32,000 nucleotides of DNA, taken from positions 6,000,001 to 6,032,000 of the forward strand of contig NZ_CP042911.1 of NCBI RefSeq assembly GCF_008065095.1, read 5' to 3'. Within the stretch, counting starts at the first letter, position 1, and the number at the start of each line of letters is the position of its first letter. This stretch comes from Gemmata obscuriglobus (lineage in GTDB: Bacteria > Planctomycetota > Planctomycetia > Gemmatales > Gemmataceae). The notes beneath the pieces are model-generated. The model did no database searches. It saw only the letters and a list, made by a program, of their open reading frames with translations, and was not told where the DNA came from. Shown here piece by piece: positions 8,616-19,254 of this stretch. A program made the translations under genes and the position numbers.

Positions 8616-11600
8616 GTGGCGGGGATGCTCATGAGCCCAAAAACGAACTGGGTCACCGTCACGGATTCGCGCTACCAGTGGGAGCGCGACGCCCTCGATT
8701 TCGTCCGCGACCGCTGGCCCGACCACGAGCCGTACCGTGCGTGGTCGAACTTCGAGTTCATTGCGCTCGACGGCAGCATCAACGAGGTTGACCTGCTGCT
8801 GCTCACCCCGATGGGCTTCTTCCTCGTCGAGATCAAAAGCCGGCCGGGGCGGGTGTCCGGCGATGCGGGCACCTGGACGTGGGACACCGAGGGCCGACTC
8901 GTCACCGTCGGGAACCCGCTCCTCGCTGCCAACCTGAAGGCCAAGAAGCTCCGCGCGCTGCTCGAGCGCCAAAAGGCGGTTAAGGTCAAGGGCGGTCTGC
9001 CGTTTGTGGAGCCGCTCGTTTTCCTTTCCGCGCCGGGGCTTCAGTGCGATCTGCGCGACACGGCGGTTTACGGCGTCTGCCTGCGTGACGCGGACGCCGA
9101 GGGCGGCCGGCCGGAGCGGGCCGGAATACTCGCTGCGGTCAAGAGGCGCGAGTGCCCCGGCCTGAAGCCGAAGCACGGCCCGTTCATCGACCGCCCACTC
9201 GCGAAGATCGTCAGTCAGGCCATCCAGCAGGCGGGAATCCCGAACCAGCACCGCCAGCGGCGGGTGAGCGACTACGTGCTCGGTCGACTCCTCGACGAGG
9301 GGCCCGGCTACCAGGACTGGGAGGCGTCCCACGTCCAGAACGTCGGCGGCAAGCGGCGCGTCCGCCTCTACCTCGTGTGGAACGAGGCCACGGCCGACGA
9401 CCGGCAGATGGTCGAGCGGGCCGCCCGGCGGGACTACCAACTGACCGAGGCCCTCCAGCACCCCGGCGTTCTCCGGACCCTCGGCTACACCGAGCACGAG
9501 ATCGGCCCGGCGGTCGTCTTCGAGCACGACCCGAACGCACTCCGGCTCGACCACTATCTCGCTCAGCGGGGCGACCGGCTGGGGGCCGACGTGCGGCTCG
9601 ATCTGCTCCGACAGATCGCGGAGGTCGTCCGGTTCGCCCACGAGAAGAAGGTCGTCCACCGGGGCCTCTGCCCGCGGAGCATCCTCGTCCACGACCCGGA
9701 CGGGCCGCGGCCGCGGGTGAAGGTGCACAACTGGCAGGTCGGCTACCGGGTCGGCGGGTCGTCGTCGGGCGGGACGCGGGACATCACCGCCACCTCACAC
9801 GTTGATCTGCTGGTGGAGGACGCGGGAACGGCGTACATGGCTCCGGAGGCGGTCCTGCCCGCCGACACCGCCGGCGAGCACCTCGACATCTTCTCACTGG
9901 GGGCCGTCGCCTACCACGTCTTCACCGGCACGCCGCCGGCCGGCAACCGGCTGGAGCTGGCCGAGAAGTTACGGCAGACCCGCGGGCTGCTCGTGAGCGA
10001 CGCCCTGAACGGGGCGGCACCCAGCCTCCAGGAGTTGGTGCAGTACAGCACCCACCCGGACGTGACGAGCCGCGTCGACTCGGCCGCCGACTTCCTGGCC
10101 GGGCTCGACCTCGTCGAGGAGGAGTTGACCGCCCCGACGACGGATGCGCTGGTCGACCCGGTGCGGGCTCAGAAGGGGGACGCGCTTCCCGGCGGGTTCA
10201 CCGTCGTCCGCCGGCTCGGCCAGGGGGGCACGTCGGTTGCGCTGCTGGTCGAGCGGGAAGGTGAAGAGTACGTCCTCAAGGTTCCAAACACCGCGGACGA
10301 CGAGCCGCGGTTGCGGGCCGAGGGCGAGGTGCTCGCCAAATTGCGGCACCCCCACGTCATCGAGTACGTTCAGCCACAGAAGCTGTCTGGCCTCCCGTAC
10401 CTGTTGCTGCGGTCGGCCGGGCCGGAGACGCTCGGCCAGCGGCTGCGGAAGGAGGGGCGGCTGCACCTGGACCTGCTCCAGCGGTTCGGGGAGGATCTGC
10501 TGGAGGTGGTGAAGTACCTGGAGGAACAGGGCATACCGCACCGGGACATCAAGCCCGACAACATTGGCGTCGGCCCGGTCGGACGCGGGGACATGCTCCA
10601 CGTTGTCCTGTTCGACTTCTCCCTGTCCCGCACGCCGCCGGAGAACGTTGAGGCCGGCACCAAGGCGTACCTCGACCCGGCCCTCCCGCGGCGCAAGCGG
10701 TGGGACCTGGCCGCCGAGCGGTACGCGGCCGCCGTCACCCTGTTCGAGATGGCCACCGGCACGCTCCCGCGGTGGGGCGACGGCCGGAGCGAGCCGTCGC
10801 AGCTCGACTGCGAGGCGACGGTCGACGAGGAGCTGTTCGACCCGACCCTGCGGGACGCCTTCGTCCTGTTCTTCCGCAAGGCCCTCCGCCGGGAGGCCCG
10901 CGAGCGGCACGACAACGCCGACGAGATGCTCCGGGCGTGGCGAGACTGTTTCGCGGCCATCGGGCCGCCGGACGCCGGGGAACTGAACGAAGAAGAACTC
11001 CGGGCGAGGCTGGAGGGGGCGACGTTCGACTCGTCGGTCCACGAACTGGGGCTGGGGACGCGGGCGACCAACGCTCTGGACCGGGCCAACATGCTGACCG
11101 TCGAGGACATGCTCAGCGTGTCCATGCGGCGGCTGCTGCGGTTGCGCGGCGTCGGCAACAAGACGCGGCGGGAGATCGCGTCCGCCGTCAAGATCCTGCG
11201 GGCCCGACTGGGCACCCCGCAGGCCGACGCGACGGTGGCCGTAGAAGAGCCCGAAGAGCCGCCGACGGGTGCCCCCGGTCGATTGAGCGTCGATCTGCTG
11301 GTTCAGCGGCTCACCCGCTCCAGCCCGCGCGAGGGGGGCACGGCCAAGCAGTCGGTCATCGCCCTGCTCGGACTTGAGGAGTCGCTCCCGAACCCCTGGC
11401 CCAGCCAGGCGGACGTATCACGGTTCATCGGCGTGACGCGGGCCAGGGTCGGGGCGGTCATCAGCAAGGTGATCGACCGCTGGGGCCGTGACAAGGCCCT
11501 GACCGCCCTCCGCGGCGACCTTGCCGGGCTGCTGGTGACGGCCGGTGGGGTGATGACCGCCGGGGAACTCGGCGACGCAATCCTGGCCGCCCGCGGGTCG

Positions 11601-12803
11601 GTGGCGGAGGAGCCCCAGCGGTCGCTGCTCGGCCGGGCCATCGCACGCGCCGCGGTCGAGGTCGAGAGGACGATGTCCGAGCCGCGGTTCCTCGTCCGCC
11701 GCGACGACACGCGGACGCTCGTCGCCCTGCACCCGGCCCTGGCTGACCACGCCGCCCGGCTCGGCGACCGGGCCGACGAACTGGCCCGCGAGGACCCGTT
11801 GGCTTCTCCGACGCGGGCGTTGCAGGTTCTCCGCGAGGTGCCGGCCCCGGCCGGGTTCGAGCCGCTGGCCGACTCCCGGCTCCTGCGGCTGGCCGCCGCG
11901 GCGTCGGTCGAGGCCGCGGTGTCGAGCCGTCAGGAGATCTACCCCCGCGGGATGGACGCCCTCCGGGCTCTGCGGCTGGCGCAGGGAGCCCTCGGCAACG
12001 TGAAGGTGCTCACCGTCGAGCAGGTCCGCGACCGGGTGGCCGGACGCTACCCGGACGCCCAGCCGCTGCCGGAGCGGCCACAGTTGGACGAGTTGCTGGA
12101 GGCGGCCGACGTCGGCTTGCGGTGGAACCCGGACGCCGCCGACGGCCGCGGCGGGTACGTCTCCCGCTTCCAGGAGACGGTGTCGGTTACCACGGCCAGC
12201 ACGCCGCCACAACGGCAACCGACCGCGTCCGGCCACGCGCCTCGCGAGACGTTCTCGCCGGAGGAGGCCGACGCCCGCCTGTTCGAGGAGAAGTTGCGGC
12301 GGTCCCTCAAGGAAGGGGCGTTCCTCACTTTGCTGGTCGCTCAGCGATCGTATCAGCAAGCCCTCGGTGAGCTGCAAAGCGAGCGCTTCTCGCTGAAGAC
12401 CATCGACGCCGACCGGCTGATCATCGACTCCCTCCGCGAGACGGCGGGCAAGGCCCGCGTCGATTGGCCCCTCGTCCTGCGGGCCGACTCCCACACCGGC
12501 AACGGCGACTGGGCGAAGTTGATGATGCTGGTCGGCCGGGCGATGCCGCGGGTCGAGGAACGACTCGCCGGGTCCGACTCCACGATCCTGCTCCTGAACC
12601 CCGGCCTGCTGGCCCGGTACGACAAACTAGACCTGCTCGAAAAGCTCCGGGACCGCGTCGGGCGGCCCGGCGGCCCCGCGGGTCTGTGGCTGCTCTTGCC
12701 GAACCAGCAGCCGATGATCGACGGGAAGGCCGTGCCGCTGCTCAGCCCCGCCCAGCGGGTCCACGTCCCGGAGAGCTGGGTCGAGAACCGTCACCGGGCC
12801 TAG
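8616..12803 (+). CDS. pglW: BREX type 2 serine/threonine kinase PglW (NERD domain + degenerate kinase + active kinase + RpoA alpha-CTD-like HhH + long C-terminal region)
   Basis: 1395-aa ORF; GTG at 8616, with alternative ATGs at 8625 and 8631. NERD-like WERDALDFV...EVDLLLLTPMGFFLVEIKS. First kinase-like domain has VHRGLCPRSILV and YMAPE. Second kinase has GQGGTS, VLKV, HRDIKPDN, DFS. HhH motif is LGLGTRATNALDRANMLTVEDML..LRGVGNKTRREI. Context: directly upstream of pglX/Y/Z. Confidence 0.9.
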   Translation: MAGMLMSPKTNWVTVTDSRYQWERDALDFVRDRWPDHEPYRAWSNFEFIALDGSINEVDLLLLTPMGFFLVEIKSRPGRVSGDAGTWTWDTEGRLVTVGNPLLAANLKAKKLRALLERQKAVKVKGGLPFVEPLVFLSAPGLQCDLRDTAVYGVCLRDADAEGGRPERAGILAAVKRRECPGLKPKHGPFIDRPLAKIVSQAIQQAGIPNQHRQRRVSDYVLGRLLDEGPGYQDWEASHVQNVGGKRRVRLYLVWNEATADDRQMVERAARRDYQLTEALQHPGVLRTLGYTEHEIGPAVVFEHDPNALRLDHYLAQRGDRLGADVRLDLLRQIAEVVRFAHEKKVVHRGLCPRSILVHDPDGPRPRVKVHNWQVGYRVGGSSSGGTRDITATSHVDLLVEDAGTAYMAPEAVLPADTAGEHLDIFSLGAVAYHVFTGTPPAGNRLELAEKLRQTRGLLVSDALNGAAPSLQELVQYSTHPDVTSRVDSAADFLAGLDLVEEELTAPTTDALVDPVRAQKGDALPGGFTVVRRLGQGGTSVALLVEREGEEYVLKVPNTADDEPRLRAEGEVLAKLRHPHVIEYVQPQKLSGLPYLLLRSAGPETLGQRLRKEGRLHLDLLQRFGEDLLEVVKYLEEQGIPHRDIKPDNIGVGPVGRGDMLHVVLFDFSLSRTPPENVEAGTKAYLDPALPRRKRWDLAAERYAAAVTLFEMATGTLPRWGDGRSEPSQLDCEATVDEELFDPTLRDAFVLFFRKALRREARERHDNADEMLRAWRDCFAAIGPPDAGELNEEELRARLEGATFDSSVHELGLGTRATNALDRANMLTVEDMLSVSMRRLLRLRGVGNKTRREIASAVKILRARLGTPQADATVAVEEPEEPPTGAPGRLSVDLLVQRLTRSSPREGGTAKQSVIALLGLEESLPNPWPSQADVSRFIGVTRARVGAVISKVIDRWGRDKALTALRGDLAGLLVTAGGVMTAGELGDAILAARGSVAEEPQRSLLGRAIARAAVEVERTMSEPRFLVRRDDTRTLVALHPALADHAARLGDRADELAREDPLASPTRALQVLREVPAPAGFEPLADSRLLRLAAAASVEAAVSSRQEIYPRGMDALRALRLAQGALGNVKVLTVEQVRDRVAGRYPDAQPLPERPQLDELLEAADVGLRWNPDAADGRGGYVSRFQETVSVTTASTPPQRQPTASGHAPRETFSPEEADARLFEEKLRRSLKEGAFLTLLVAQRSYQQALGELQSERFSLKTIDADRLIIDSLRETAGKARVDWPLVLRADSHTGNGDWAKLMMLVGRAMPRVEERLAGSDSTILLLNPGLLARYDKLDLLEKLRDRVGRPGGPAGLWLLLPNQQPMIDGKAVPLLSPAQRVHVPESWVENRHRA

Positions 12804-12807
12804 GAGG
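12803..12807 (+). promoter_or_regulatory. GGAGG Shine-Dalgarno-like element overlapping the pglW stop; probable original pglX RBS, now displaced by the cassette insertion
   Basis: TAGGAGGAAG at 12801-12810 lies immediately left of the inverted repeat. Joining the sequence outside both repeats gives TAGGAGGAAG+ACCCTTCTCTTATG, which places GGAGG 14 nt (a long spacer) upstream of the pglX ATG. Confidence 0.4.
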
Positions 12808-12810
12808 AAG

Positions 12811-13260
12811 CTCCCGCAAAGTCGCAAAGACGCAGAGAGAAACAGAAATGACCGAGAACGAAATTGCAACAGCTGTCGTCGATGCTGCGTTCCAGATCCA
12901 CACCAAACTCGGCCCGGCCTGCTCGAAAGCGTTTACCAGGCGGTCATGGTTCACGAACTCGCGCGACGCGGCCTGTCGGTCGCACACGAGGTTCCGGTCC
13001 CGGTGATCTGGGAGGGTTTGCGCCTGGAGGCCGGGTTCCGGGCCGACATCATCGTGGACGGTCGGGGCGTCATCGAGTTGAAGTCGGTGGAGGCGGTGGC
13101 CCCGGTCCATCCGAAGCAACTCCGTACCTACCTCCGGCTCACCGGCTGCAAACTTGGGCTTCTGGTCAACTTCAACGTAAACCTGATCAAGGACGGCATC
13201 ACCCGCGTGGTGAACGGTCTCTGATCTTGATTCCTTTGCGTCTTTGCGACTTTGCGGGAG
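12811..13260 (+). mobile_element. 450-bp cassette bounded by perfect 24-bp inverted repeats, carrying a GxxExxY-family gene
   Basis: CTCCCGCAAAGTCGCAAAGACGCA at 12811-12834 is exactly the reverse complement of 13237-13260 (checked base by base). The repeat is built from tandem (N)CGCAAAG octamers. A third, related copy pair lies at 16171-16243. Confidence 0.7.
12848..13224 (+). pseudogene. GxxExxY protein (PD-(D/E)XK nuclease superfamily), disrupted by a 1-nt deletion
   Basis: ATG at 12848 gives MTENEIATAVVDAAFQIHTKLGP, then the frame is lost. Track ORF 12946..13224 continues as MVHELARRGLSV...GFRADIIVDGRGVIELKSVEAVAPVHPKQLRTYLRLTGCKLGLLVNFNVNLIKDGITRVVNGL. Adding one G in GGCCCGG/CCTG (about 12917) restores GPGLLESVYQAVMVHEL, the family signature. 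Confidence 0.8.
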
Positions 13261-13271
13261 ACCCTTCTCTT

Positions 13272-16200
13272 ATGATCGACCGCACCGCGTTCCTGGCCGA
13301 CGCGCAGAAGATCGTCGCCCGGCTGGAGAAGGACCTGCGCGCCCGGTGCGACGACATGCCCGAAGTCGGGCGGGCCGTCGGGTCCGAGTACCGCACCGCG
13401 AAAGACGCCGGCCGCACCGGGCAGACGCTCGAAGAGTGGCGGGCCGACGCCATCACCCAGCAGGCCGTCGCCTGGGTGCTGTCGTGCGTGTTCGTGCGGT
13501 TCCTGGAGGACAACCGGCTCATCGACCCGCCGAAGATCAGCGGGCCGGTCCCGCCGGAGGGCGAGAAGGGTGAGAACCGGCTGGCCCGTGCCCGCGACGA
13601 GCACGAACTGTTCTTCACCGGCGCACGCCGGGGGAGCGAGTTCACCGACCGCGAGTACCTGCTGTCCGTGTTCGACGAGCTGGCGAAGCGGCCGGGCACG
13701 AAGGACCTGTACGGCCCGCACAACCCGATCCGGGCGATCCCGAACTGGCTGTCGCCGGACGCCGCGAAGGACATCCTGCTGCCGTTCTTCCAGAAGATCG
13801 ACGCCGGGTCCGGCCTACTCGTCCACGACTTCACCGACCCGTCATTCGACACCCGCTTCCTCGGCGACCTGTACCAGGACCTCTCGGAGGCGGCCCGCAA
13901 GAAGTACGCCCTGCTCCAGACGCCGGTGTTCGTGGAGGAGTTCATCCTCGACCGCACCCTGCTACCGGCGATCGAGACGTTCGGCCTCGCCACGGTGAAG
14001 ATGATCGACCCGGCCTGCGGCAGTGGCCACTTCCTGCTCGGTGGGTTCAACAAGCTGCTGGAACTGTGGGTGAAAAAGGAGCCGGGCACGCCGCCGCGGG
14101 AGTTGGTGCAGCGAGCACTCGACGCGATCCACGGCGTGGACCTGAACCCCTACGCGGTGGCCATCGCTCGGTTCCGGTTGCTGCTGGCGGCGTGGCAGGC
14201 GGCCGGGGTGACGAGCCTGAAGAACGCCCCGGACTTCAAGCTGAACCTGGCCTGCGGCGACTCGCTGTTGCACGGCGGCCGGTCGGTGCAGAAGACACTC
14301 GACGAGGAGGTATTCGGGCACACTTACCAGCCCGAAGACCCGGTCGAACTGGAGCGATTGCTGCGCCCCGGCACCTACCACGCGGTGGTCGCCAACCCGC
14401 CATACATCACCCCGAAAGATCGCGGGCTTTGCGACCAGTACCGTGATCGGTATTCCGCCTGCCACCGTCAGTATTCGTTATCCGTACCGTTCATGCAGCG
14501 TCTTTTTGAACTAGCATGCGCAAATGGTTTTATTGGCCAGATCACGGCCAATTCATTCATGAAGCGGGAATTTGGCAAGAAGATTGTCGAGGCATTTTTC
14601 CCCCTGATAGACCTGACCCACATCATCGATAGCAGTGGGGCCCACATTCCAGGTCACGGTATTCCGACGGTGATACTTTTCGGTCGTAACCGCCCCCCGG
14701 TTGCCACAACCCTTCGTGCCGTCATGGGGATTCGAGGCGAACCGTGCGTGCCAGCTAACCCAGCGACAGGTCCAGTATGGTCTTCGATTGAGCAGCAGGT
14801 CGATCAGCCAGGGTCTCAGGGGAAGTTCGTTAGCGTTTCTGATGCAGAACGGGCCGTTTTTCTGAAACATCCTTGGAGCATCGGAGGTGGTGGGGTCGCC
14901 GACGCAAAAGAAACCATCGATCAGGTTTCTAACACTTGCCTCGCATCAATAGTTGAATCGCTTGGGAGGACGGTATCGACCCAGGGAGATGACGTCTTCG
15001 TTGTGCCCACGGCGCAAGCACGTCGGAGTGGCATCGTTACGGGCCACTACCGTCCACTTGTGCGTGGCGAAGATGTCAGGGATTGGCAGGCTAAAGCCGA
15101 TCTTGCAGTGTTGTTCCCGTACGACACAAACCTACTTCCGATACCCGATGACTTGTCAGCAACTGTGCTCCGCTACCTGTGGCCTGCTAAAGCAGTGCTG
15201 GCTTCAACTTTGATGTTTGGTGACAAGACGAAGGTGCAAACTGGATTAAGGTGGTTTGAGTATGGCCAGTTCATCGCCGATCGCTTGCGGAATCGTATCG
15301 CCCTTGTTTACAGCGAAGTAGCCACGCACAACCACTTCGCTTTCGACCGCGGGAGCAGAGTCTTCAATCGTACTGCTCCTATCATCCTGCTTTCCAGTTC
15401 TGTCACGGAAGACGGGCATTTCGCCCTTCTTGGTTTGCTGAACAGCTCGGTCGCAGGCTTTTGGCTCCGACAAGTCTGCCACGATAAAGGCAGCAGCGGG
15501 ATCACTGGCGGCATAAAAGTGGAAGCCTGGGATCGTTTCTTTGCATTCAATGGGACAAATACTAATCGATTTCCGCTCCCTGACGCACGCCCACGAGGGC
15601 TTGCATTTCGGCTCGACGCTTTCGCGCGCAACATCGCGGACAATCAGCCTGCCAGTGTCATTGCTAGATGGGTCGATGGTTTATCGCTCTCGTCTTTACT
15701 CGACAGTTCTGAAGCCACGTGCCGCCGTTGCCGAGGGACAATGATACGGCTGCAAGAAGACCTCGACTGGGAGTGCTACCGCCTCTATGGGCTGTCCGCT
15801 GACGGCCTCACCGACTCACAATGGGAGACCCGCGACTTGCCGGTCAAGCTCGGTGAGCGGGCGTTCGAGATCGTCCTCGCCCGCAAGATGCGCGATGAGG
15901 GCTTGGAAACGACGTGGTTCGCCCGGCACGGCTCGACCCCGATCACCGAGCTACCCGCGCACTGGCCGCCGGACTACCGGAAGCTGGTCGAACGCCGCAT
16001 TGAGGCCATCGCGGCCAACCCGCAGATCGCCCTGATCGAGCAGCCGGAGTACAAGCGGCGGTGGAACGACACCCCGTGGGCCGAGAAGGTCACCGCCGCC
16101 CTGCACGACTGGCTCCTCGCCCGGCTGGAGTCGTACTTCGACATTGATGGGAGGATGCGAGAAGATGAGAATCTCCCGCAAAGTCGCAAAGGCGCAAAGA

Positions 16201-17075
16201 CGGAAGGTTCTTCTCTTGGCGACTCTGCGGCTTTGCGGGAGATTCGTCTTTATCCGCTCACTCGAATCGCCGACGTGGCGTCGAAGGACGCCGAGTTCCG
16301 CGAAGTGGGCCGACTCTACCGCGAGGGGCGGATCGACTTCGACGTAACGAAGCTGGTCACCGAACTGGTCGAGGCCGAGAGCGTCCCGCTCCTGCCAGTG
16401 CTGCGGTACAAACCGACGGGGTTGGATAAGCGGCTAGCCTGGGAGCGAACCTGGGATCTGCAACGCCGCGAGGACGCCATCGACGCCCGCGTCGCCGGCA
16501 AGTCGGTCGATGTCGGTGCCGGCGGCTGGACGCACCAGAAAGACGACGGCAAGTCGCCGCTGAACCCGGCGCAGGCGAGCCTGCTCAAGCAGTACGTCGT
16601 CGACCCGAACACCCCGCAGTCGATCCCGGTGCCGCCGAAGTACAAGTCGGCAGACTTCCAGAAGGGCGACTACTGGCGTCTCCGCGGCGGCCTCGACGTG
16701 CCGAAGGAGCGGTGGGTACTATTCCCGCACTGCGGCGGGGCCGACGGGCTGCCACTGGTCGCCTGGGCCGGGTACGATCACCTGCAACTGGCTAAGGCGA
16801 TCGCGACCCACTACGTCCACGTGCAGGAGCAGGAGGGCGGCCGCGACGACCCGCGGCTGGTGCCGCTGCTGGCGGCGATCTGCCAACTGCTCCCGTGGCT
16901 GAAGCAGTGGCACAACGAGATGGACGAGGAGTTCGGCTCCCGGATGGGCGACTACTACGAGGGGTTCGTCTCGGAGGAGGCCCGCGGGATGGGCAAGACG
17001 GTGGACGAGGTCTGCACTTGGCAGCCTCCTGCCGGCGGGAACGGCCGGAGCGGCCGCGGCCGGAGAGCAAAGTAG
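13272..17075 (+). CDS. pglX: BREX adenine-specific DNA methyltransferase PglX
   Basis: The ATG at 13272 (MIDRTAFLADAQK) lies within track ORF 12864..17075. AdoMet motif IDPACGSGHFLL is at about 14004. Catalytic motif VVANPPYITPK has NPPY at 14394-14405. The size (1267 aa) and the position between pglW and pglY fit PglX. Confidence 0.9.
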   Translation: MIDRTAFLADAQKIVARLEKDLRARCDDMPEVGRAVGSEYRTAKDAGRTGQTLEEWRADAITQQAVAWVLSCVFVRFLEDNRLIDPPKISGPVPPEGEKGENRLARARDEHELFFTGARRGSEFTDREYLLSVFDELAKRPGTKDLYGPHNPIRAIPNWLSPDAAKDILLPFFQKIDAGSGLLVHDFTDPSFDTRFLGDLYQDLSEAARKKYALLQTPVFVEEFILDRTLLPAIETFGLATVKMIDPACGSGHFLLGGFNKLLELWVKKEPGTPPRELVQRALDAIHGVDLNPYAVAIARFRLLLAAWQAAGVTSLKNAPDFKLNLACGDSLLHGGRSVQKTLDEEVFGHTYQPEDPVELERLLRPGTYHAVVANPPYITPKDRGLCDQYRDRYSACHRQYSLSVPFMQRLFELACANGFIGQITANSFMKREFGKKIVEAFFPLIDLTHIIDSSGAHIPGHGIPTVILFGRNRPPVATTLRAVMGIRGEPCVPANPATGPVWSSIEQQVDQPGSQGKFVSVSDAERAVFLKHPWSIGGGGVADAKETIDQVSNTCLASIVESLGRTVSTQGDDVFVVPTAQARRSGIVTGHYRPLVRGEDVRDWQAKADLAVLFPYDTNLLPIPDDLSATVLRYLWPAKAVLASTLMFGDKTKVQTGLRWFEYGQFIADRLRNRIALVYSEVATHNHFAFDRGSRVFNRTAPIILLSSSVTEDGHFALLGLLNSSVAGFWLRQVCHDKGSSGITGGIKVEAWDRFFAFNGTNTNRFPLPDARPRGLAFRLDAFARNIADNQPASVIARWVDGLSLSSLLDSSEATCRRCRGTMIRLQEDLDWECYRLYGLSADGLTDSQWETRDLPVKLGERAFEIVLARKMRDEGLETTWFARHGSTPITELPAHWPPDYRKLVERRIEAIAANPQIALIEQPEYKRRWNDTPWAEKVTAALHDWLLARLESYFDIDGRMREDENLPQSRKGAKTEGSSLGDSAALREIRLYPLTRIADVASKDAEFREVGRLYREGRIDFDVTKLVTELVEAESVPLLPVLRYKPTGLDKRLAWERTWDLQRREDAIDARVAGKSVDVGAGGWTHQKDDGKSPLNPAQASLLKQYVVDPNTPQSIPVPPKYKSADFQKGDYWRLRGGLDVPKERWVLFPHCGGADGLPLVAWAGYDHLQLAKAIATHYVHVQEQEGGRDDPRLVPLLAAICQLLPWLKQWHNEMDEEFGSRMGDYYEGFVSEEARGMGKTVDEVCTWQPPAGGNGRSGRGRRAK
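16171..16243 (+). repeat. 73-nt solo inverted-repeat (MITE-like) copy of the cassette terminal repeat, embedded in the pglX reading frame
   Basis: ATCTCCCGCAAAG (16171-16183) pairs perfectly with CTTTGCGGGAGAT (16231-16243), and the stem extends imperfectly beyond that. The left arm CTCCCGCAAAGTCGCAAAGGCGCAAAGA matches the 12811 repeat. It is translated as ..NLPQSRKGAKTEGSSLGDSAALREI.. with no stop. Confidence 0.75.
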
Positions 17076-17101
17076 GCGACCTCCAATCAGACAGGGCGAT
17101 C

Positions 17102-18370
17102 ATGTTCATCACGACGCTGGAGCTGGAGAACGTCCGCACGTTCGCGAAGGCGAACCTGGACTTCGTCCACCCGGACCTGGAGTACGCACCGGCGAAGACG
17201 CCGCTAGACAAGCTGAAAAAGCGACTTCCCCGTCCGCGACTGCCGAACGTGAACCTGCTGCTCGGCGACAACGGTTCGGGCAAGACGACGCTTCTGCGGG
17301 CCATCGCGATGTCCGCCCTCGGCCCGAGCGTGACCAGCCCTTCGGCTGGAATCCGGGACCCGGGGCTGGTTCGGCGGGGCGCGGACCTGCCGAAGAATGC
17401 GAAGGCACGCCTCGTGAGTGCGTTCGGGTTACACCCCCAAGACCGGGCCCCAGAAGGGGCGGTCGCACGGGGGGAACTTGAGGTCGGGAAGCGGGGCGAC
17501 ACCGAGGAGTTCAGGTTCCTCGATCCGGACGAACACGTGTGGGAGCCGGTCTTCGAGGAGAAGAACGACGCGTTCCTCGTGGTCGGTTACGGGGCCACTC
17601 GTCGCGTGGAGCAAGCCGATCGGTTTGACATGGGGTCGCGGACCAAGACCCGGTTCATCCGCGGACAGCGCATCGCCAGCCTCTACGAGGACGGGTTCTC
17701 GCTCATCCCGCTGACCTACTGGTTGCCCGACTTGCAGAAGTCCAACAAAGGGCGATATACCCAGGTCGTCCACCTCCTCAAACGGCTGATCGGACCCGGC
17801 CACTACACGTTCACCGAAGAGCTAGAGCGGGGCGACTACCTCTTCGAGCGAGGCGGTATGAAGATCCCGTTCCGGGCACTTTCCGACGGTTACCGGGCCT
17901 TCATCGGGTGGGTCGGGGACCTGTTATACCACGTGTGCTACGGCGCCCCGTCCGGGAAGAAACTGGACGAGGGGTCGGGGATCGTACTGGTGGACGAGAT
18001 CGACCTGCACCTGCACCCGCGGTGGCAGATGAAGGTCATCCCGACGATCGCGAAGGCACTGCCCCGGATGCAGTTCGTGTTCACGTCGCACAGCCCCCTC
18101 GTGGCCGGCAGCCTCGAATGGATGAACATCATCACGCTGAAGACGAACAACAAGACCAACCGCACCAAAGTTGGACGTCTCCAGAGGAGCATTCACGGGC
18201 TCGACGCGGATCAGATCCTGCTGAGCGACCTTTTTGGGCTGACCAGTACGCGGGCCGAAGCCAAGACGACCCAGCTTCACAAGCTGACGGCTCAAGCCCG
18301 AGAGGGCGATGACGCCGCGGCCCTCCAAATCGTCCGAGAACTCAGTCGTGGGTTGGAGGAGTCGCCTTGA
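17102..18370 (+). CDS. AAA_15/AAA_21-type ABC-like ATPase, Septu PtuA-like
   Basis: ATG at 17102 (MFITTLELENVRTF). Walker A LLGDNGSGKTTLLRAI, signature-like LSDGYRAF, Walker B IVLVDEIDLHLHPRWQ, H-loop FVFTSHSP. Its stop overlaps the start of the downstream HNH gene. Confidence 0.8.
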   Translation: MFITTLELENVRTFAKANLDFVHPDLEYAPAKTPLDKLKKRLPRPRLPNVNLLLGDNGSGKTTLLRAIAMSALGPSVTSPSAGIRDPGLVRRGADLPKNAKARLVSAFGLHPQDRAPEGAVARGELEVGKRGDTEEFRFLDPDEHVWEPVFEEKNDAFLVVGYGATRRVEQADRFDMGSRTKTRFIRGQRIASLYEDGFSLIPLTYWLPDLQKSNKGRYTQVVHLLKRLIGPGHYTFTEELERGDYLFERGGMKIPFRALSDGYRAFIGWVGDLLYHVCYGAPSGKKLDEGSGIVLVDEIDLHLHPRWQMKVIPTIAKALPRMQFVFTSHSPLVAGSLEWMNIITLKTNNKTNRTKVGRLQRSIHGLDADQILLSDLFGLTSTRAEAKTTQLHKLTAQAREGDDAAALQIVRELSRGLEESP

Positions 18371-19254
18371 TCCGCATCGTCGTCACCGAAGCCGCCCTAC
18401 GGGCCAGAATTGAGGAACTCAAGGCCGGCTGGGAGGGGCGGATGAAGGCGCTCGTCACGGCCCTCAGGGGCAACGACGATCCCGAATTCCAGAACGAGTG
18501 GAGCGACATCAAAGAGGCGTACATCGAATTCCAGCACTCGAAGTGCGCGTTCTGCGAAAAGCCCCTGGAGGGCAAGATCGAACAGGACGTGGAGCACTTC
18601 CGGCCAAAGGGGGCCGTGGTCGCTTGGCCGGTGCCCGGTGACTTGGCCGATGAGGTTCGGAAAGCCGGGTTCCGGGTTGTTCAGCCACCCAGAGGGTCGA
18701 AGGGATACAAGTACCTCGCGTACCATCCGCTCAACTACCTGACGGCGTGCAAAACGTGCAACTCGATTAGAAAGAAGAACTACTTCCCGATCGCGGGCCG
18801 CCGTAGGCTCGGCGGACGCGCGATCGCTGACCTCGCGGGCGAGCAAGCCTATTTGATTTACCCACTCTCGGACCTCGACGCGGACCCGGAGCACTTGATC
18901 GAGTTCATCGGCATTACGCCTCGTCCCAAAGCCGGCTTGACGGTCTTTGAACGACTCCGCGCACGCGTGACGATCGAATTCTTCGGCCTGGACAACGTAT
19001 CCGAGCGGAAGGATCTGCTCATCGACCGATTCGAGACGCTAGAAAAAGTCTACCTTGCACTGAAGGGGCGGACGGAATTTGCCACAGCGGCCGACCGCAA
19101 CAGGGCCGACCAGGTGGTGACGGCTTACCAGACCAGCCGGAGGCGGCATACGAACTGTATCAAACATTTCGTTGCCCTGTTTACCCGGCATCCGGAGCAA
19201 GCCGAGCAACTATATCAGGACGCGGTTACCTACCTGAAAACGGTCTCCAGTTGA
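18367..19254 (+). CDS. HNH endonuclease of the TIGR02646 / Septu PtuB-like type
   Basis: TTG start at 18367 overlaps the ATPase stop (TTGA). Motifs: KCAFCEKPLEG..EQDVEHFRPKG ... LNYLTACKTCNSIRKKNYFP (CxxC..H..CxxCN HNH pattern). A downstream TIEFFGLDNVSERKDLLIDR segment is also typical of this family. Confidence 0.75.
   Translation: MIRIVVTEAALRARIEELKAGWEGRMKALVTALRGNDDPEFQNEWSDIKEAYIEFQHSKCAFCEKPLEGKIEQDVEHFRPKGAVVAWPVPGDLADEVRKAGFRVVQPPRGSKGYKYLAYHPLNYLTACKTCNSIRKKNYFPIAGRRRLGGRAIADLAGEQAYLIYPLSDLDADPEHLIEFIGITPRPKAGLTVFERLRARVTIEFFGLDNVSERKDLLIDRFETLEKVYLALKGRTEFATAADRNRADQVVTAYQTSRRRHTNCIKHFVALFTRHPEQAEQLYQDAVTYLKTVSS

What the first reader, a model, noticed from the sequence alone, without database searches (positions are those of the whole stretch)
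12804..13271. Inverted-repeat-flanked GxxExxY cassette inserted precisely between the pglX RBS and start codon
A 450-bp unit bounded by perfect 24-bp inverted repeats (12811-12834 / 13237-13260) carries a PD-(D/E)XK GxxExxY gene and fills the pglW-pglX spacer.

Removing it in silico leaves TAGGAGGAAG+ACCCTTCTCTTATG. That is a compact junction with a GGAGG about 14 nt before the pglX ATG, which looks like a clean insertion of a discrete element.

In a pglW-pglX transcript the repeats would form a 24-bp perfect stem closing a loop of about 400 nt. This is the geometry of RNase III-processed rRNA intervening sequences, so the element could uncouple or modulate expression of the methyltransferase relative to the kinase.
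Basis: partly seen in the sequence, partly recalled or inferred. Interest (0 to 1): 0.65.

Follow-up and report, generated by a model that had tools for sequence, protein, structure and literature searches.

The report
Decayed nuclease cassette splitting BREX genes
The 450-bp unit between the pglW and pglX defence genes of Gemmata obscuriglobus is a real but frameshifted copy of a small nuclease gene cassette, whose conserved hairpin-forming ends recur across many bacterial phyla and appear undescribed as a unit.

Summary
The inverted repeat is real: 24/24 nt perfect, 27 nt with one G·U, none expected by chance. It fills the pglW-pglX spacer of a complete BREX-2 locus in Gemmata obscuriglobus.

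- The GxxExxY gene is a pseudogene. A C4-to-C3 deletion at 12913-12915 breaks it, and the same break is present in 17 assemblies.
- The "clean insertion after the pglX RBS" is wrong. An empty-site orthologue has pglW and pglX overlapping by 4 nt (GTGA). The element replaced 24 nt there, and GGAGGAAG belongs to the element's outer stem.
- The repeat does not only flank genes. A compact 77-nt copy sits in frame inside pglX.

More broadly, 74 of 80 GxxExxY genes from unrelated metagenomes (30-66% GC) carry arms built of the same 8-nt CGCAAAG units. The cassettes sit tightly between a neighbour's stop codon and the next start codon, among housekeeping genes. One cassette is inverted between two relatives.

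Best reading: an old, decaying copy of a selfish, Cas4-like nuclease cassette that operons can tolerate. Its stem joins the pglW stop to the pglX start and hides pglX's Shine-Dalgarno-like GGGAG (SD-like, the ribosome-binding motif). RNase III processing is plausible but untested.

The parts
8616..12803 (+). pglW (BREX-2 Ser/Thr kinase). Compared with empty-site relatives, its last 8 codons were replaced and its TAG stop is supplied by the inserted DNA.
   Evidence: NF033442 scores 1689 bits. The C-terminus is ...ENRHRA* here and ...ENRHRAAQPSENRP* in L124.
12801..12810 (+). Outer left flank TAGGAGGAAG. It is the purine-rich outer extension of the element's stem and contains the pglW stop codon. 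It is not a displaced pglX RBS.
   Evidence: It is absent from the empty site L124. Across the family, positions -13 to -4 are 57-75% purine. It pairs with UUCUCUUA in the MFE and centroid folds. L121 has a co-varying outer pair, GGAAAGCAAGAAT / ATTCTGCTTCC.
12811..12837 (.). 5' arm CTCCCGCAAAG TCGCAAAG ACGCAGAG: a terminal CTCNCGCAAAG followed by 8-nt periodic NCGCAAAG units.
12848..13224 (+). GxxExxY (PF13366 / TIGR04256) nuclease pseudogene, Cas4/RecB-like PD-(D/E)XK. A 1-nt deletion in the C-run 12913-12915 shifts the frame after codon 23.
   Evidence: The AF2 model of a homologue has pLDDT 91 and best matches Cas4 SSO0001 (4ic1, E=1e-4).
12946..13224 (+). Residual 92-aa ORF, which lacks the GxxExxY motif. 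This is what gene callers annotate in G. obscuriglobus assemblies.
   Evidence: P0131 is 100% identical and found on 17 contigs, including ABGO01000001.1 and a 9.03-Mb contig.
13234..13260 (.). 3' arm CTTTGCGT CTTTGCGA CTTTGCGGGAG. Its terminal GGGAG (13256-13260) is the only SD-like motif (Shine-Dalgarno, ribosome-binding) upstream of the pglX ATG, with an 11-nt spacer.
13261..13271 (+). Outer right flank ACCCTTCTCTT. It is the pyrimidine-rich partner of the left flank and runs up to the A of the pglX ATG.
   Evidence: fold; comparison with L121 and L124.
13272..17075 (+). pglX (BREX-2 adenine methyltransferase).
   Evidence: NF033451 scores 1457 bits.
16169..16245 (.). Compact hairpin copy of the same repeat: 32-nt arms at 88% complementarity with a 13-nt loop. 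It is read in frame inside pglX (…NLPQSRKGAKTEGSSLGDSAALREI…).
   Evidence: -56.8 kcal/mol, z = -6.6. It is absent in L122, L124 and most PglX orthologues, and present in L121/P0002.

Best explanation
Identity: the unit is an old, decaying copy of a widespread selfish gene cassette. The cassette is a ~125-aa Cas4/RecB-like PD-(D/E)XK nuclease gene (the GxxExxY family). It is bracketed by family-specific inverted arms of the form CTCNCGCAAAG(NCGCAAAG)n.

History: an ancestor shared with at least two other Gemmata-like BREX-2 loci acquired the cassette in the only permissive spot between pglW and pglX. That spot is the 24-nt pglW tail plus the overlapping GTGA stop/start, which the cassette replaced. 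The inserted DNA now supplies the pglW stop codon (TAG), an SD-like GGGAG, and the sequence leading up to the pglX ATG. In G. obscuriglobus the nuclease gene has since been broken by a 1-nt deletion, while the arms remain perfectly complementary.

Mechanism (inferred): on the pglW-pglX mRNA the arms plus the outer flanks zip into a stem of about 35 bp. This stem places the pglW stop codon beside the pglX start codon and sequesters the GGGAG. A ribosome terminating at the pglW UAG would melt the base of the stem and free the GGGAG, which would preserve translational coupling. Alternatively, RNase III would cut the stem and free it.

This geometry is the norm for the family, which may be why the cassette is tolerated inside operons. 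The cassette is not a BREX component.

How the cassette moves is unknown. The arms are recombinationally active at the DNA level, and the encoded nuclease is the prime candidate for the enzyme that recognises them.
For: Shown:
- Inverted repeat and family membership.
- The frameshift is confirmed against L122 and is present in 17 assemblies of G. obscuriglobus.
- Site states in relatives: filled in L121 and L122/L123; empty with a GTGA overlap in L124 and a 4-nt overlap in the P0009 locus; occupied by a different element (a RAYT-type Y1 transposase between REP hairpins) in L205.
- 74 of 80 GxxExxY genes from metagenomes of 30-66% GC have runs of CGCNRAG units within 160 nt, at 6.5 per kb against 0.24 per kb elsewhere.
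- The two arms of one element are more alike than arms of different elements (0.71 against 0.62; 0 of 5000 permutations reach this).
- The protein tree tracks arm arrangement and unit variant.
- Neighbouring genes are housekeeping: 128 Pfam families among 127 flanking ORFs, and 75% are co-oriented with the cassette.
- F|R cassettes (arms pointing inward, as in the window) start 2-33 nt after an upstream stop in all but one case where one was called, and mostly end from 9 nt inside to 19 nt before a downstream start.
- One cassette is inverted relative to identical flanks between L125 and L157.
- dN/dS is 0.14 between L121 and L122. Between the window and L122 there are 2 synonymous and 6-7 non-synonymous changes.
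- The long-range stem appears in both the MFE and centroid folds (z = -4.75) and includes UAGGAGGA/UUCUCUUA.

Inferred: the translational coupling or RNase III consequences, and the nuclease's role in mobility.
Against: - No target-site duplication is present, and the insertion is not clean: 24 nt were replaced at the junction, and about 58 nt were replaced by 109 nt at the pglX hairpin. The integration mechanism is therefore not that of a classical transposon and remains unknown.
- Among roughly 200 loci chosen by the repeat alone, only 3 carry a GxxExxY gene. The hairpins could be moved by something else.
- On the sense strand, G·U-type mismatches outnumber A·C-type mismatches 23 to 11 (p = 0.058). 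This is only a trend towards RNA-level selection.
- Purifying selection on the ORF in L121 and L122 would also fit a host-beneficial function.
- No expression data were available.
Confidence: 0.7

Rival explanations
1. One reading: the stem is an RNase III site, as in rRNA intervening sequences. The host keeps the element as a regulator that uncouples or tunes PglX (methyltransferase) expression relative to PglW (kinase).
For: - A stem of 27 bp, or about 35 bp with the flanks, closes a ~400-nt loop. This is nearly the same geometry as the RNase III-cleaved Coxiella IVS: 428 nt with a 28-bp stem carrying one mismatch.
- The SD-like GGGAG of pglX lies inside the stem, so cleavage would free it.
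- The cassette is retained in three diverged loci.
- The arms stay perfect although the ORF has decayed.
Against: - Close relatives work with a 4-nt pglW/pglX overlap and no element.
- The same cassette family sits mostly among housekeeping genes, with no enrichment for defence genes.
- A similar stem lies inside the pglX ORF itself and would also be a substrate.
- There is no cleavage data, and the G·U bias is only marginal.
Confidence: 0.2
2. The arms are a REP/MITE-like host repeat family mobilised by a separate enzyme, for example a Y1/RAYT transposase. The GxxExxY gene would then be a passenger or a favoured landing site, not the element's own enzyme.
For: - Most copies of the repeat are 60-120-nt hairpins without any ORF.
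- At the very same pglW-pglX junction, L205 carries a RAYT-type Y1 transposase flanked by a different REP hairpin. This shows that REP-type systems are active in these loci.
- A GIY-YIG ORF is also bracketed by the repeat, in L136.
Against: - No RAYT homologue was found next to CGCAAAG repeats in about 205 loci.
- The repeat units are conserved around GxxExxY genes in hosts from 30% to 72% GC, and they track the protein phylogeny. Known REP families, by contrast, are lineage-specific (background knowledge).
- GxxExxY is the only recurrent protein family tightly bracketed by the repeat.
Confidence: 0.2
3. The GxxExxY nuclease is an accessory defence effector recruited into BREX-2, like the Septu genes nested further downstream. 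The repeats would be incidental.
For: - The fold is Cas4-like.
- This BREX-2 clade accumulates nested modules: PtuA/PtuB here and in L124 and L205, and an HTH-PIN pair in the P0009 locus.
- dN/dS is 0.14 between L121 and L122.
Against: - The gene is a pseudogene in this genome.
- There is no convincing PADLOC hit: the only match is PDC-M36A at E = 0.007, 13 bits.
- Flanking genes elsewhere are tRNA synthetases, glycosyltransferases, aminotransferases and the like.
Confidence: 0.07
4. It is an integron-type gene cassette, or a chance palindrome.
For: A small promoterless ORF bounded by imperfect palindromes superficially resembles a cassette with its attC site.
Against: - The arms lie on both sides of the ORF and are made of 8-nt units. 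No attC-type core sites (GTTRRRY) are visible at the ends (by inspection).
- Chance is excluded: 0 matches in 100 shuffles, and the structure recurs in dozens of unrelated loci.
Confidence: 0.02

Closest known systems
23S rRNA intervening sequences (IVS) with an ORF, e.g. Coxiella burnetii IVS/S23p and Leptospira IVS
   Same: A unit of about 430-450 nt in which terminal inverted repeats form a stem of about 28 bp with one mismatch around a small ORF. Both are regarded as selfish, horizontally acquired and tolerated because the stem rejoins the flanking RNA. RNase III excision is shown for Coxiella (PMC4990558).
   Different: This unit lies between two protein-coding genes, not in an rRNA helix. 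Its ORF is a PD-(D/E)XK nuclease, not the four-helix-bundle S23p. RNase III cleavage is untested here. I could not test whether IVS arms share the CGCAAAG units.
REPtrons / REPINs (RAYT Y1 transposase flanked by REP hairpins)
   Same: A single gene is bracketed by inverted copies of a repeat that is far more abundant as short stand-alone hairpins. A true example occupies the same pglW-pglX junction in L205.
   Different: The protein is a Cas4-like PD-(D/E)XK nuclease, not an HUH/Y1 transposase. The repeat is built of 8-nt tandem units and keeps its sequence across many phyla, whereas REP families are lineage-specific (background knowledge).
Correia repeat-enclosed elements (Neisseria) and other MITEs
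   Same: Short elements bounded by terminal inverted repeats, often co-transcribed with neighbouring genes. Correia hairpins in mRNA are RNase III substrates that alter expression of neighbours (background knowledge).
   Different: No target-site duplication is seen here, and target DNA was replaced rather than duplicated. A coding version exists, and the distribution crosses phyla.
Rickettsia palindromic elements (RPE)
   Same: Palindromic repeats inserted in frame into protein-coding genes and translated, as with the 16169-16245 copy in PglX. Repeat-derived peptides occur at the same PglX loop in P0002, P0005, P0006 and P0020.
   Different: A different sequence family, different hosts, and an associated nuclease gene.
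Free-standing homing endonuclease genes
   Same: A small nuclease gene wedged between host genes, with patchy presence or absence among close relatives and frequent decay to a pseudogene.
   Different: No evidence of a specific homing site. Insertions are at many unrelated gene junctions, and the conserved terminal repeats are not a feature of homing endonuclease genes.

Membership tests
GxxExxY protein family (TIGR04256 / PF13366 PDDEXK_3) | HMM score above the curated cut-off over the full length | tested here: met
   TIGR04256 scores 130.9 bits (cut-off 35) over profile positions 2-116 of 116. PF13366 scores 126.5 bits (cut-off 22). Both were obtained on the frameshift-repaired translation.
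GxxExxY protein family (TIGR04256 / PF13366 PDDEXK_3) | Uninterrupted ORF of about 125 aa | tested here: not met
   A 1-nt deletion at 12913-12915 breaks the frame, and only a 92-aa remnant ORF is callable. It is a pseudogene member.
GxxExxY protein family (TIGR04256 / PF13366 PDDEXK_3) | Conserved motif residues: G-x-x-E27-x-x-Y30, D67, E77-x-K79, Q91-x-x-x-Y95 | tested here: met
   All are present in the conceptual translation. They are invariant or more than 90% conserved among 103 homologues.
BREX type 2 (Pgl) system | Gene set pglW, pglX, pglY, pglZ, brxD and a helicase | tested here: met
   PglW 1689 bits and PglX 1457 bits. PglZ 794 bits and BrxD 640 bits. PglY scores 1066 bits, which is the best hit but below the 1700 cut-off. 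A DEAD/Lhr-like helicase is present.
BREX type 2 (Pgl) system | The cassette is a conserved component of the system | tested here: not met
   It is absent from L124 and the P0009 locus, where pglW and pglX overlap by 4 nt. In L205 the site holds a RAYT gene instead.
rRNA intervening sequence (IVS) | Inserted in a helix of 16S or 23S rRNA | tested here: not met
   It lies between pglW and pglX. There is no Rfam rRNA hit in 12000-17500. No rRNA was found in any of 209 fetched loci.
rRNA intervening sequence (IVS) | Terminal inverted repeats forming a stem of at least 20 bp around a small ORF | tested here: met
   A 27-bp stem with one G·U, extended by 8 bp of flank, is present in both the MFE and centroid folds.
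rRNA intervening sequence (IVS) | Excision by RNase III | not testable with these tools
REPtron (RAYT + REP) | Encodes a Y1/HUH transposase | tested here: not met
   The only Pfam hit is PF13366. tblastn with the L205 RAYT found nothing in the window or other loci.
REPtron (RAYT + REP) | Gene flanked by inverted copies of a repeat that is also dispersed as short hairpins | tested here: met
MITE / IS-type transposon | Terminal inverted repeats plus a target-site duplication | tested here: not met
   Terminal inverted repeats are present. There is no direct repeat at either boundary (…GGAGGAAG|CTCCC…GGGAG|ACCCTT…). Comparison with the empty site shows replacement of 24 nt, not duplication.
Integron gene cassette | A single 3' attC with R/L core sites, and IntI/attI nearby | tested here: not met
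   The arms lie on both sides and consist of 8-nt units. No GTTRRRY core is visible on inspecting the ends. I did not search specifically for IntI.

The most novel reading that the evidence does not exclude
GxxExxY genes and their CTCNCGCAAAG(NCGCAAAG)n arms may form a previously undescribed, cross-phylum class of mobile element. In this class a minimal Cas4-like PD-(D/E)XK nuclease, rather than a Y1 or DDE transposase, would recognise hairpin or cruciform arms built of 8-nt iterons. It would drive insertion, inversion and the spread of ORF-less hairpin derivatives, including in-frame copies inside proteins. The arms would be shaped so that the RNA stem rejoins the neighbours' stop and start codons and donates an SD-like motif. 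That would make the element nearly silent inside operons, and it could be the same design principle as rRNA intervening sequences.
Probability: 0.35. Interest if true: 0.8.

Novelty: new variant of a known kind. Interest (0 to 1): 0.6.

Why it matters
For this locus:
- The BREX-2 operon of a model planctomycete has been colonised at least three times: by the nuclease cassette, by an in-frame hairpin in PglX, and by a nested Septu system.
- The ancestral translational coupling of kinase and methyltransferase has been replaced by a long-range RNA stem.

More generally:
- GxxExxY (TIGR04256/PF13366) is a very large family: the search's 8,000-candidate limit was reached at E ≤ 1e-10. Its function is listed as unknown.
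- Here the family is almost always embedded in one conserved, 8-nt periodic inverted-repeat architecture, across hosts of 30-72% GC.
- The cassette sits exactly between neighbouring stop and start codons and can invert.
- This gives a concrete, testable hypothesis for what the family does.
- It also offers a tractable non-rRNA model for an old question: how ORF-bearing rRNA intervening sequences arise, move and are tolerated.

Tried and rejected
- Rfam, E-value mode, on 12000-17500: only a chance miRNA hit at E = 0.5.
- Sequence search of a GxxExxY profile against the PDB: no hit.
- Literature: "GxxExxY" occurs in 3 papers and PF13366/PDDEXK_3 in 2, none about repeats. The arm sequence occurs in no paper.
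- Exact look-up of the window's PglW: not on record. The source genome was found through the 92-aa remnant ORF instead.
The link to IVS elements is therefore unproven.
- Viral contigs: 81 stretches carry three tandem units, but only one carries a GxxExxY gene. The cassette is not phage-borne.
- RAYT next to CGCAAAG repeats: none.
- Consensus terminator and promoter scan of 12000-17500: nothing at either element.
- G·U against A·C mismatch asymmetry, as a test for RNA-level selection: 23 against 11, p = 0.058, inconclusive.
- Whether the low divergence of the cassette between the window and L122 marks a homing-like co-conversion tract: rejected as unproven, because pglW shows similar 96-98% mosaic blocks elsewhere.
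- Programmed -1 frameshifting at CCC-G that would restore GPGLLE: considered. It is unsupported, because there is no canonical slippery heptamer and recent substitutions are mostly non-synonymous.
- Four-helix-bundle genes sharing the arms: not tested, for lack of a seed sequence.
Full report

Yes, in its core. The arms 12811-12834 and 13237-13260 are perfectly complementary over 24 nt. They extend to 27 nt with one G·U position. A search allowing 3 mismatches found none in 100 dinucleotide-preserving shuffles.

The flanking genes are pglW (8616-12803; NF033442, 1689 bits) and BREX-2 pglX (ATG at 13272, ending 17075; NF033451, 1457 bits). PglY, PglZ, BrxD and a DEAD/Lhr-type helicase follow. 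The 450-bp unit therefore fills the 468-nt pglW-pglX spacer of a complete BREX-2 locus.

The window comes from Gemmata obscuriglobus. The remnant ORF is found on ABGO01000001.1 (assembly GCA_000171775.1) and on a 9.03-Mb contig. ABGO00000000 is G. obscuriglobus DSM 5831 (PMC3906078).

**2. The gene is a pseudogene.**

Translation from the ATG at 12848 gives MTENEIATAVVDAAFQIHTKLGP and then runs out of frame. The rest of the protein (GLLESVYQ…VVNGL, stop 13222-13224) lies in another frame.

The orthologous cassette in L122 reads GGCCCCGGCC where the window reads GGCCCGGCC. This is a C4-to-C3 deletion at 12913-12915. The resulting 92-aa remnant ORF is identical on 17 contigs, including an NCBI assembly and several Logan assemblies, so this is not a read error.

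After repair, the protein matches PF13366 (8.6e-37) and TIGR04256 (2.7e-38) end to end. Among 103 homologues the following are invariant or nearly so: E27 and Y30 (the GxxExxY motif), D67, E77-x-K79, and Q91-x-x-x-Y95.

An AlphaFold model of a homologue (pLDDT 91) best matches Cas4 SSO0001 (4ic1, E = 1e-4). Lambda-exonuclease-like folds come next. The family is therefore a minimal Cas4/RecB-type PD-(D/E)XK nuclease.

Between L121 and L122 the ORF is under purifying selection (dN/dS 0.14, dS 0.63). Between the window and L122 there are only 2 synonymous but 6-7 non-synonymous differences. That pattern fits recent loss of constraint.

**3. What related loci show.**

The PglX homologues closest to the window's are 71-76% identical. 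I fetched the loci that encode them.

| Locus | State of the pglW-pglX junction |
|---|---|
| L122/L123 | Intact 125-aa GxxExxY gene with the same arms at the same place; about 91% nt identity |
| L121 | The cassette plus an extra compact hairpin after the ORF |
| L124 | Empty site; window 12801-13272 is replaced by 24 nt; PglW ends …ENRHRAAQPSENRP*; its TGA overlaps the pglX GTG (GTGA); pglW is 90% identical in nt |
| P0009 locus | pglW and pglX overlap by 4 nt |
| L205 | A RAYT-type Y1 transposase (PF01797, 28 bits against a cut-off of 23) flanked by perfect 29-nt REP hairpins of another family; it starts within a few nt of where the window's element starts |

Three conclusions follow.
- The overlap is the likely ancestral state.
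- The cassette insertion is old. It is shared by loci whose flanking genes differ by dS 0.14-0.32.
- The short pglW tail is simply the only place where insertions survive.

**4.

Removing the unit in silico does leave TAGGAGGAAG+ACCCTTCTCTTATG. No empty site looks like that.

GGAGGAAG matches the purine-rich outer flank seen across the family: positions -13 to -4 are 57-75% purine, with T at -1 in 79% of arms. In the predicted RNA fold, UAGGAGGA pairs with UUCUCUUA. L121 has a different but again complementary outer pair, GGAAAGCAAGAAT / ATTCTGCTTCC.

So the inserted DNA runs from the pglW stop codon to the base before the pglX ATG. It replaced 24 nt rather than slipping between an RBS and a start codon. 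There is no target-site duplication.

**5. The repeat is a large, cross-phylum family.**

The hits came from Acidobacteriota (mostly Pyrinomonadaceae), Thermodesulfobacteriota and other delta-proteobacterial MAGs, Binatia, Planctomycetota, Verrucomicrobiota, Bacteroidota, Nostoc, Treponema, Nitrospiraceae and Methylococcaceae.

Most copies are compact hairpins spanning 60-120 nt. Their arms are made of 2-5 tandem 8-nt units (NCGCAAAG), and they often sit in tandem.

The window holds a second copy at 16169-16245: 32-nt arms and a 13-nt loop, at -56.8 kcal/mol (z = -6.6). It is read in frame inside PglX.
- Most PglX orthologues read DGRMND-AGKPTAQV-DVS at this point.
- The window and P0002 carry a repeat-derived peptide there. 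P0005 carries a similar one.
- P0006 and P0020 carry peptides from the other REP family.
- At the DNA level, about 58 nt were replaced by 109 nt.

This resembles the in-frame palindromic elements of Rickettsia.

**6. The repeat is tied to the GxxExxY gene.**

A metagenome scan with a GxxExxY alignment gave 582 relatives, of which 80 loci were kept (30-66% GC).

- Runs of at least 2 periodic CGCNRAG units occur at 6.5 per kb within 160 nt of the ORF, against 0.24 per kb in the rest of the same loci. 74 of the 80 ORFs have at least one run.
- Arrangements fall into three main types. In F|R the arms point inward as in the window (24-27 loci). In R|F they point outward (11 loci). In FR|FR a hairpin sits on each side (6 loci).
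- The two arms of one element resemble each other more than arms of other elements (0.71 against 0.62; 0 of 5000 permutations reach this). The variable fifth base of CTC[N]CGC usually matches between partners.
- In an NJ tree of the proteins, clades share arrangement and unit variant. One example is an R|F clade with CGCCAAG units. ORF and arms therefore evolve as one cassette.
- Flanking genes are ordinary: 128 Pfam families among 127 flanking ORFs, including tRNA synthetases, glycosyltransferases and aminotransferases. 75% are co-oriented with the cassette.
- F|R cassettes start 2-33 nt after an upstream stop codon in all but one case where one was called. Most end from 9 nt inside to 19 nt before the next start codon. 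The window's values are 7 nt and 11 nt.
- Between L125 and L157 the same cassette lies between the same two convergent genes but is inverted relative to them. The arms therefore recombine, or are re-used, at the DNA level.

In the opposite direction the link is weak. Among roughly 200 loci chosen by the repeat alone, only three carry a GxxExxY gene. GxxExxY is nevertheless the only recurrent family bracketed by the repeat. A single GIY-YIG ORF in L136 is the other nuclease found.

**7. How it probably works.**

Shown: the identity, history and family architecture described above.

Inferred for this locus:
- In the pglW-pglX transcript, the arms plus outer flanks form the long-range stem in both the MFE and centroid structures (-217 kcal/mol, z = -4.75).
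- The stem puts the pglW UAG next to the pglX AUG.
- It also buries the only SD-like motif for pglX, the GGGAG at the end of the 3' arm, 11 nt before the ATG. In the empty site L124, a GGAG inside the pglW tail sits at a similar distance.

There are two ways pglX could still be translated.
- A ribosome terminating at the pglW UAG, 7 nt before the arm, would melt the base of the stem and expose GGGAG beside it. That would restore coupling.
- RNase III would cut the stem, as it does in the Coxiella IVS of almost the same geometry: 428 nt and a 28-bp stem (PMC4990558).

I cannot choose between these without RNA data. On the sense strand, G·U-type mismatches outnumber A·C-type mismatches 23 to 11 (p = 0.058), which is only a hint of RNA-level selection. 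A comparable stem inside the pglX ORF argues against efficient, indiscriminate RNase III cutting.

How the cassette moves is unknown. The lack of a target-site duplication and the replacement of target DNA speak against classical transposition. The conserved iteron-like arms, which travel with a conserved nuclease across phyla, make that nuclease the prime suspect.

**8. Comparison with known systems.**

The unit works like an ORF-bearing rRNA intervening sequence but is not in rRNA and carries a different ORF. It is organised like a REPtron but lacks a Y1 transposase. It behaves like a MITE or Correia element but has no target-site duplication. Its ORF-less copies behave like Rickettsia palindromic elements. 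It is not a BREX component and not an integron cassette. The membership table gives the individual tests.

**9. Novelty.**

The protein family is known and named, with its function listed as unknown and "multiple transfers" noted (PMC3424549). I found no paper describing its inverted-repeat architecture or containing the arm sequence, and there is no Rfam family. I therefore rate this a new variant of a known kind (selfish cassettes bracketed by hairpins). The specific copy in the window is a decayed member.

**10. Limits.**

- I could not scan the G. obscuriglobus genome itself for further copies.
- The 80 metagenome loci are the best-scoring relatives, not a random sample of the family.
- I did not test whether four-helix-bundle genes share the arms.
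- No expression data were available.

Noticed in passing
window 16895-19254: A Septu system is nested between pglX and pglY: PtuA (PDLC00301, 3.4e-141; the match starts at aa 70 of the ORF, so the true start is near 17100) and PtuB (PDLC00318, 1.5e-70). It is absent in L121 and L122, where pglX abuts pglY. L124 and L205 carry a similar AAA ATPase gene plus a ~298-aa ORF at the same place.
   Followed up: partly
L205 4223-4989: At the same pglW-pglX junction in a related BREX-2 locus sits a RAYT-type Y1 transposase gene (221 aa) between two perfect 29-nt-arm REP hairpins (GGCGAGCGGCGCGGCGTCAGCCCGCCGGT). The first hairpin is translated as the new PglW tail (…GGERRGVSPPV…). Peptides from this repeat also occur inside PglX of P0006 and P0020.
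   Followed up: partly
window 14900-15740: A block of pglX is only 60-72% identical, or unalignable, to L121, L122 and L124, while the flanks are 90% or more identical. It looks like a swapped target-recognition region.
   Followed up: no
L125 1464-1907 vs L157 650-1094: The same GxxExxY cassette (84% identity) lies between the same two convergent genes, a class I tRNA synthetase and a second gene. It is inverted relative to them in one of the two organisms.
   Followed up: partly
window cassette arms and 16169-16245; L121 cassette and pglX hairpin: The rare variable base of the first 8-nt unit is shared within a locus between the cassette arms and the pglX hairpin 3 kb away. It is T in the window (3 of 4 arms) and A in L121 (all 5 arms), whereas G dominates across the family (67%). 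This suggests concerted evolution or common origin of the two elements within a locus.
   Followed up: no
L136 1937-2359: A 141-aa GIY-YIG nuclease ORF next to a GxxExxY cassette is bracketed by the same repeat in F-ORF-R arrangement.
   Followed up: no
L236 and L244 (IMG/VR contigs): Phage-like contigs in which several consecutive small ORFs are each separated by CGCAAAG-type hairpins.
   Followed up: no
window 2040-6665 (- strand): A 1541-aa ORF upstream of the BREX locus has no hit in Pfam, NCBIfam or PADLOC.
   Followed up: no
P0009 locus (no DNA held): An HTH_17 plus PIN gene pair is inserted between pglX and pglY in another related BREX-2 locus. The pglX-pglY junction therefore also accumulates nested modules.
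   Followed up: no
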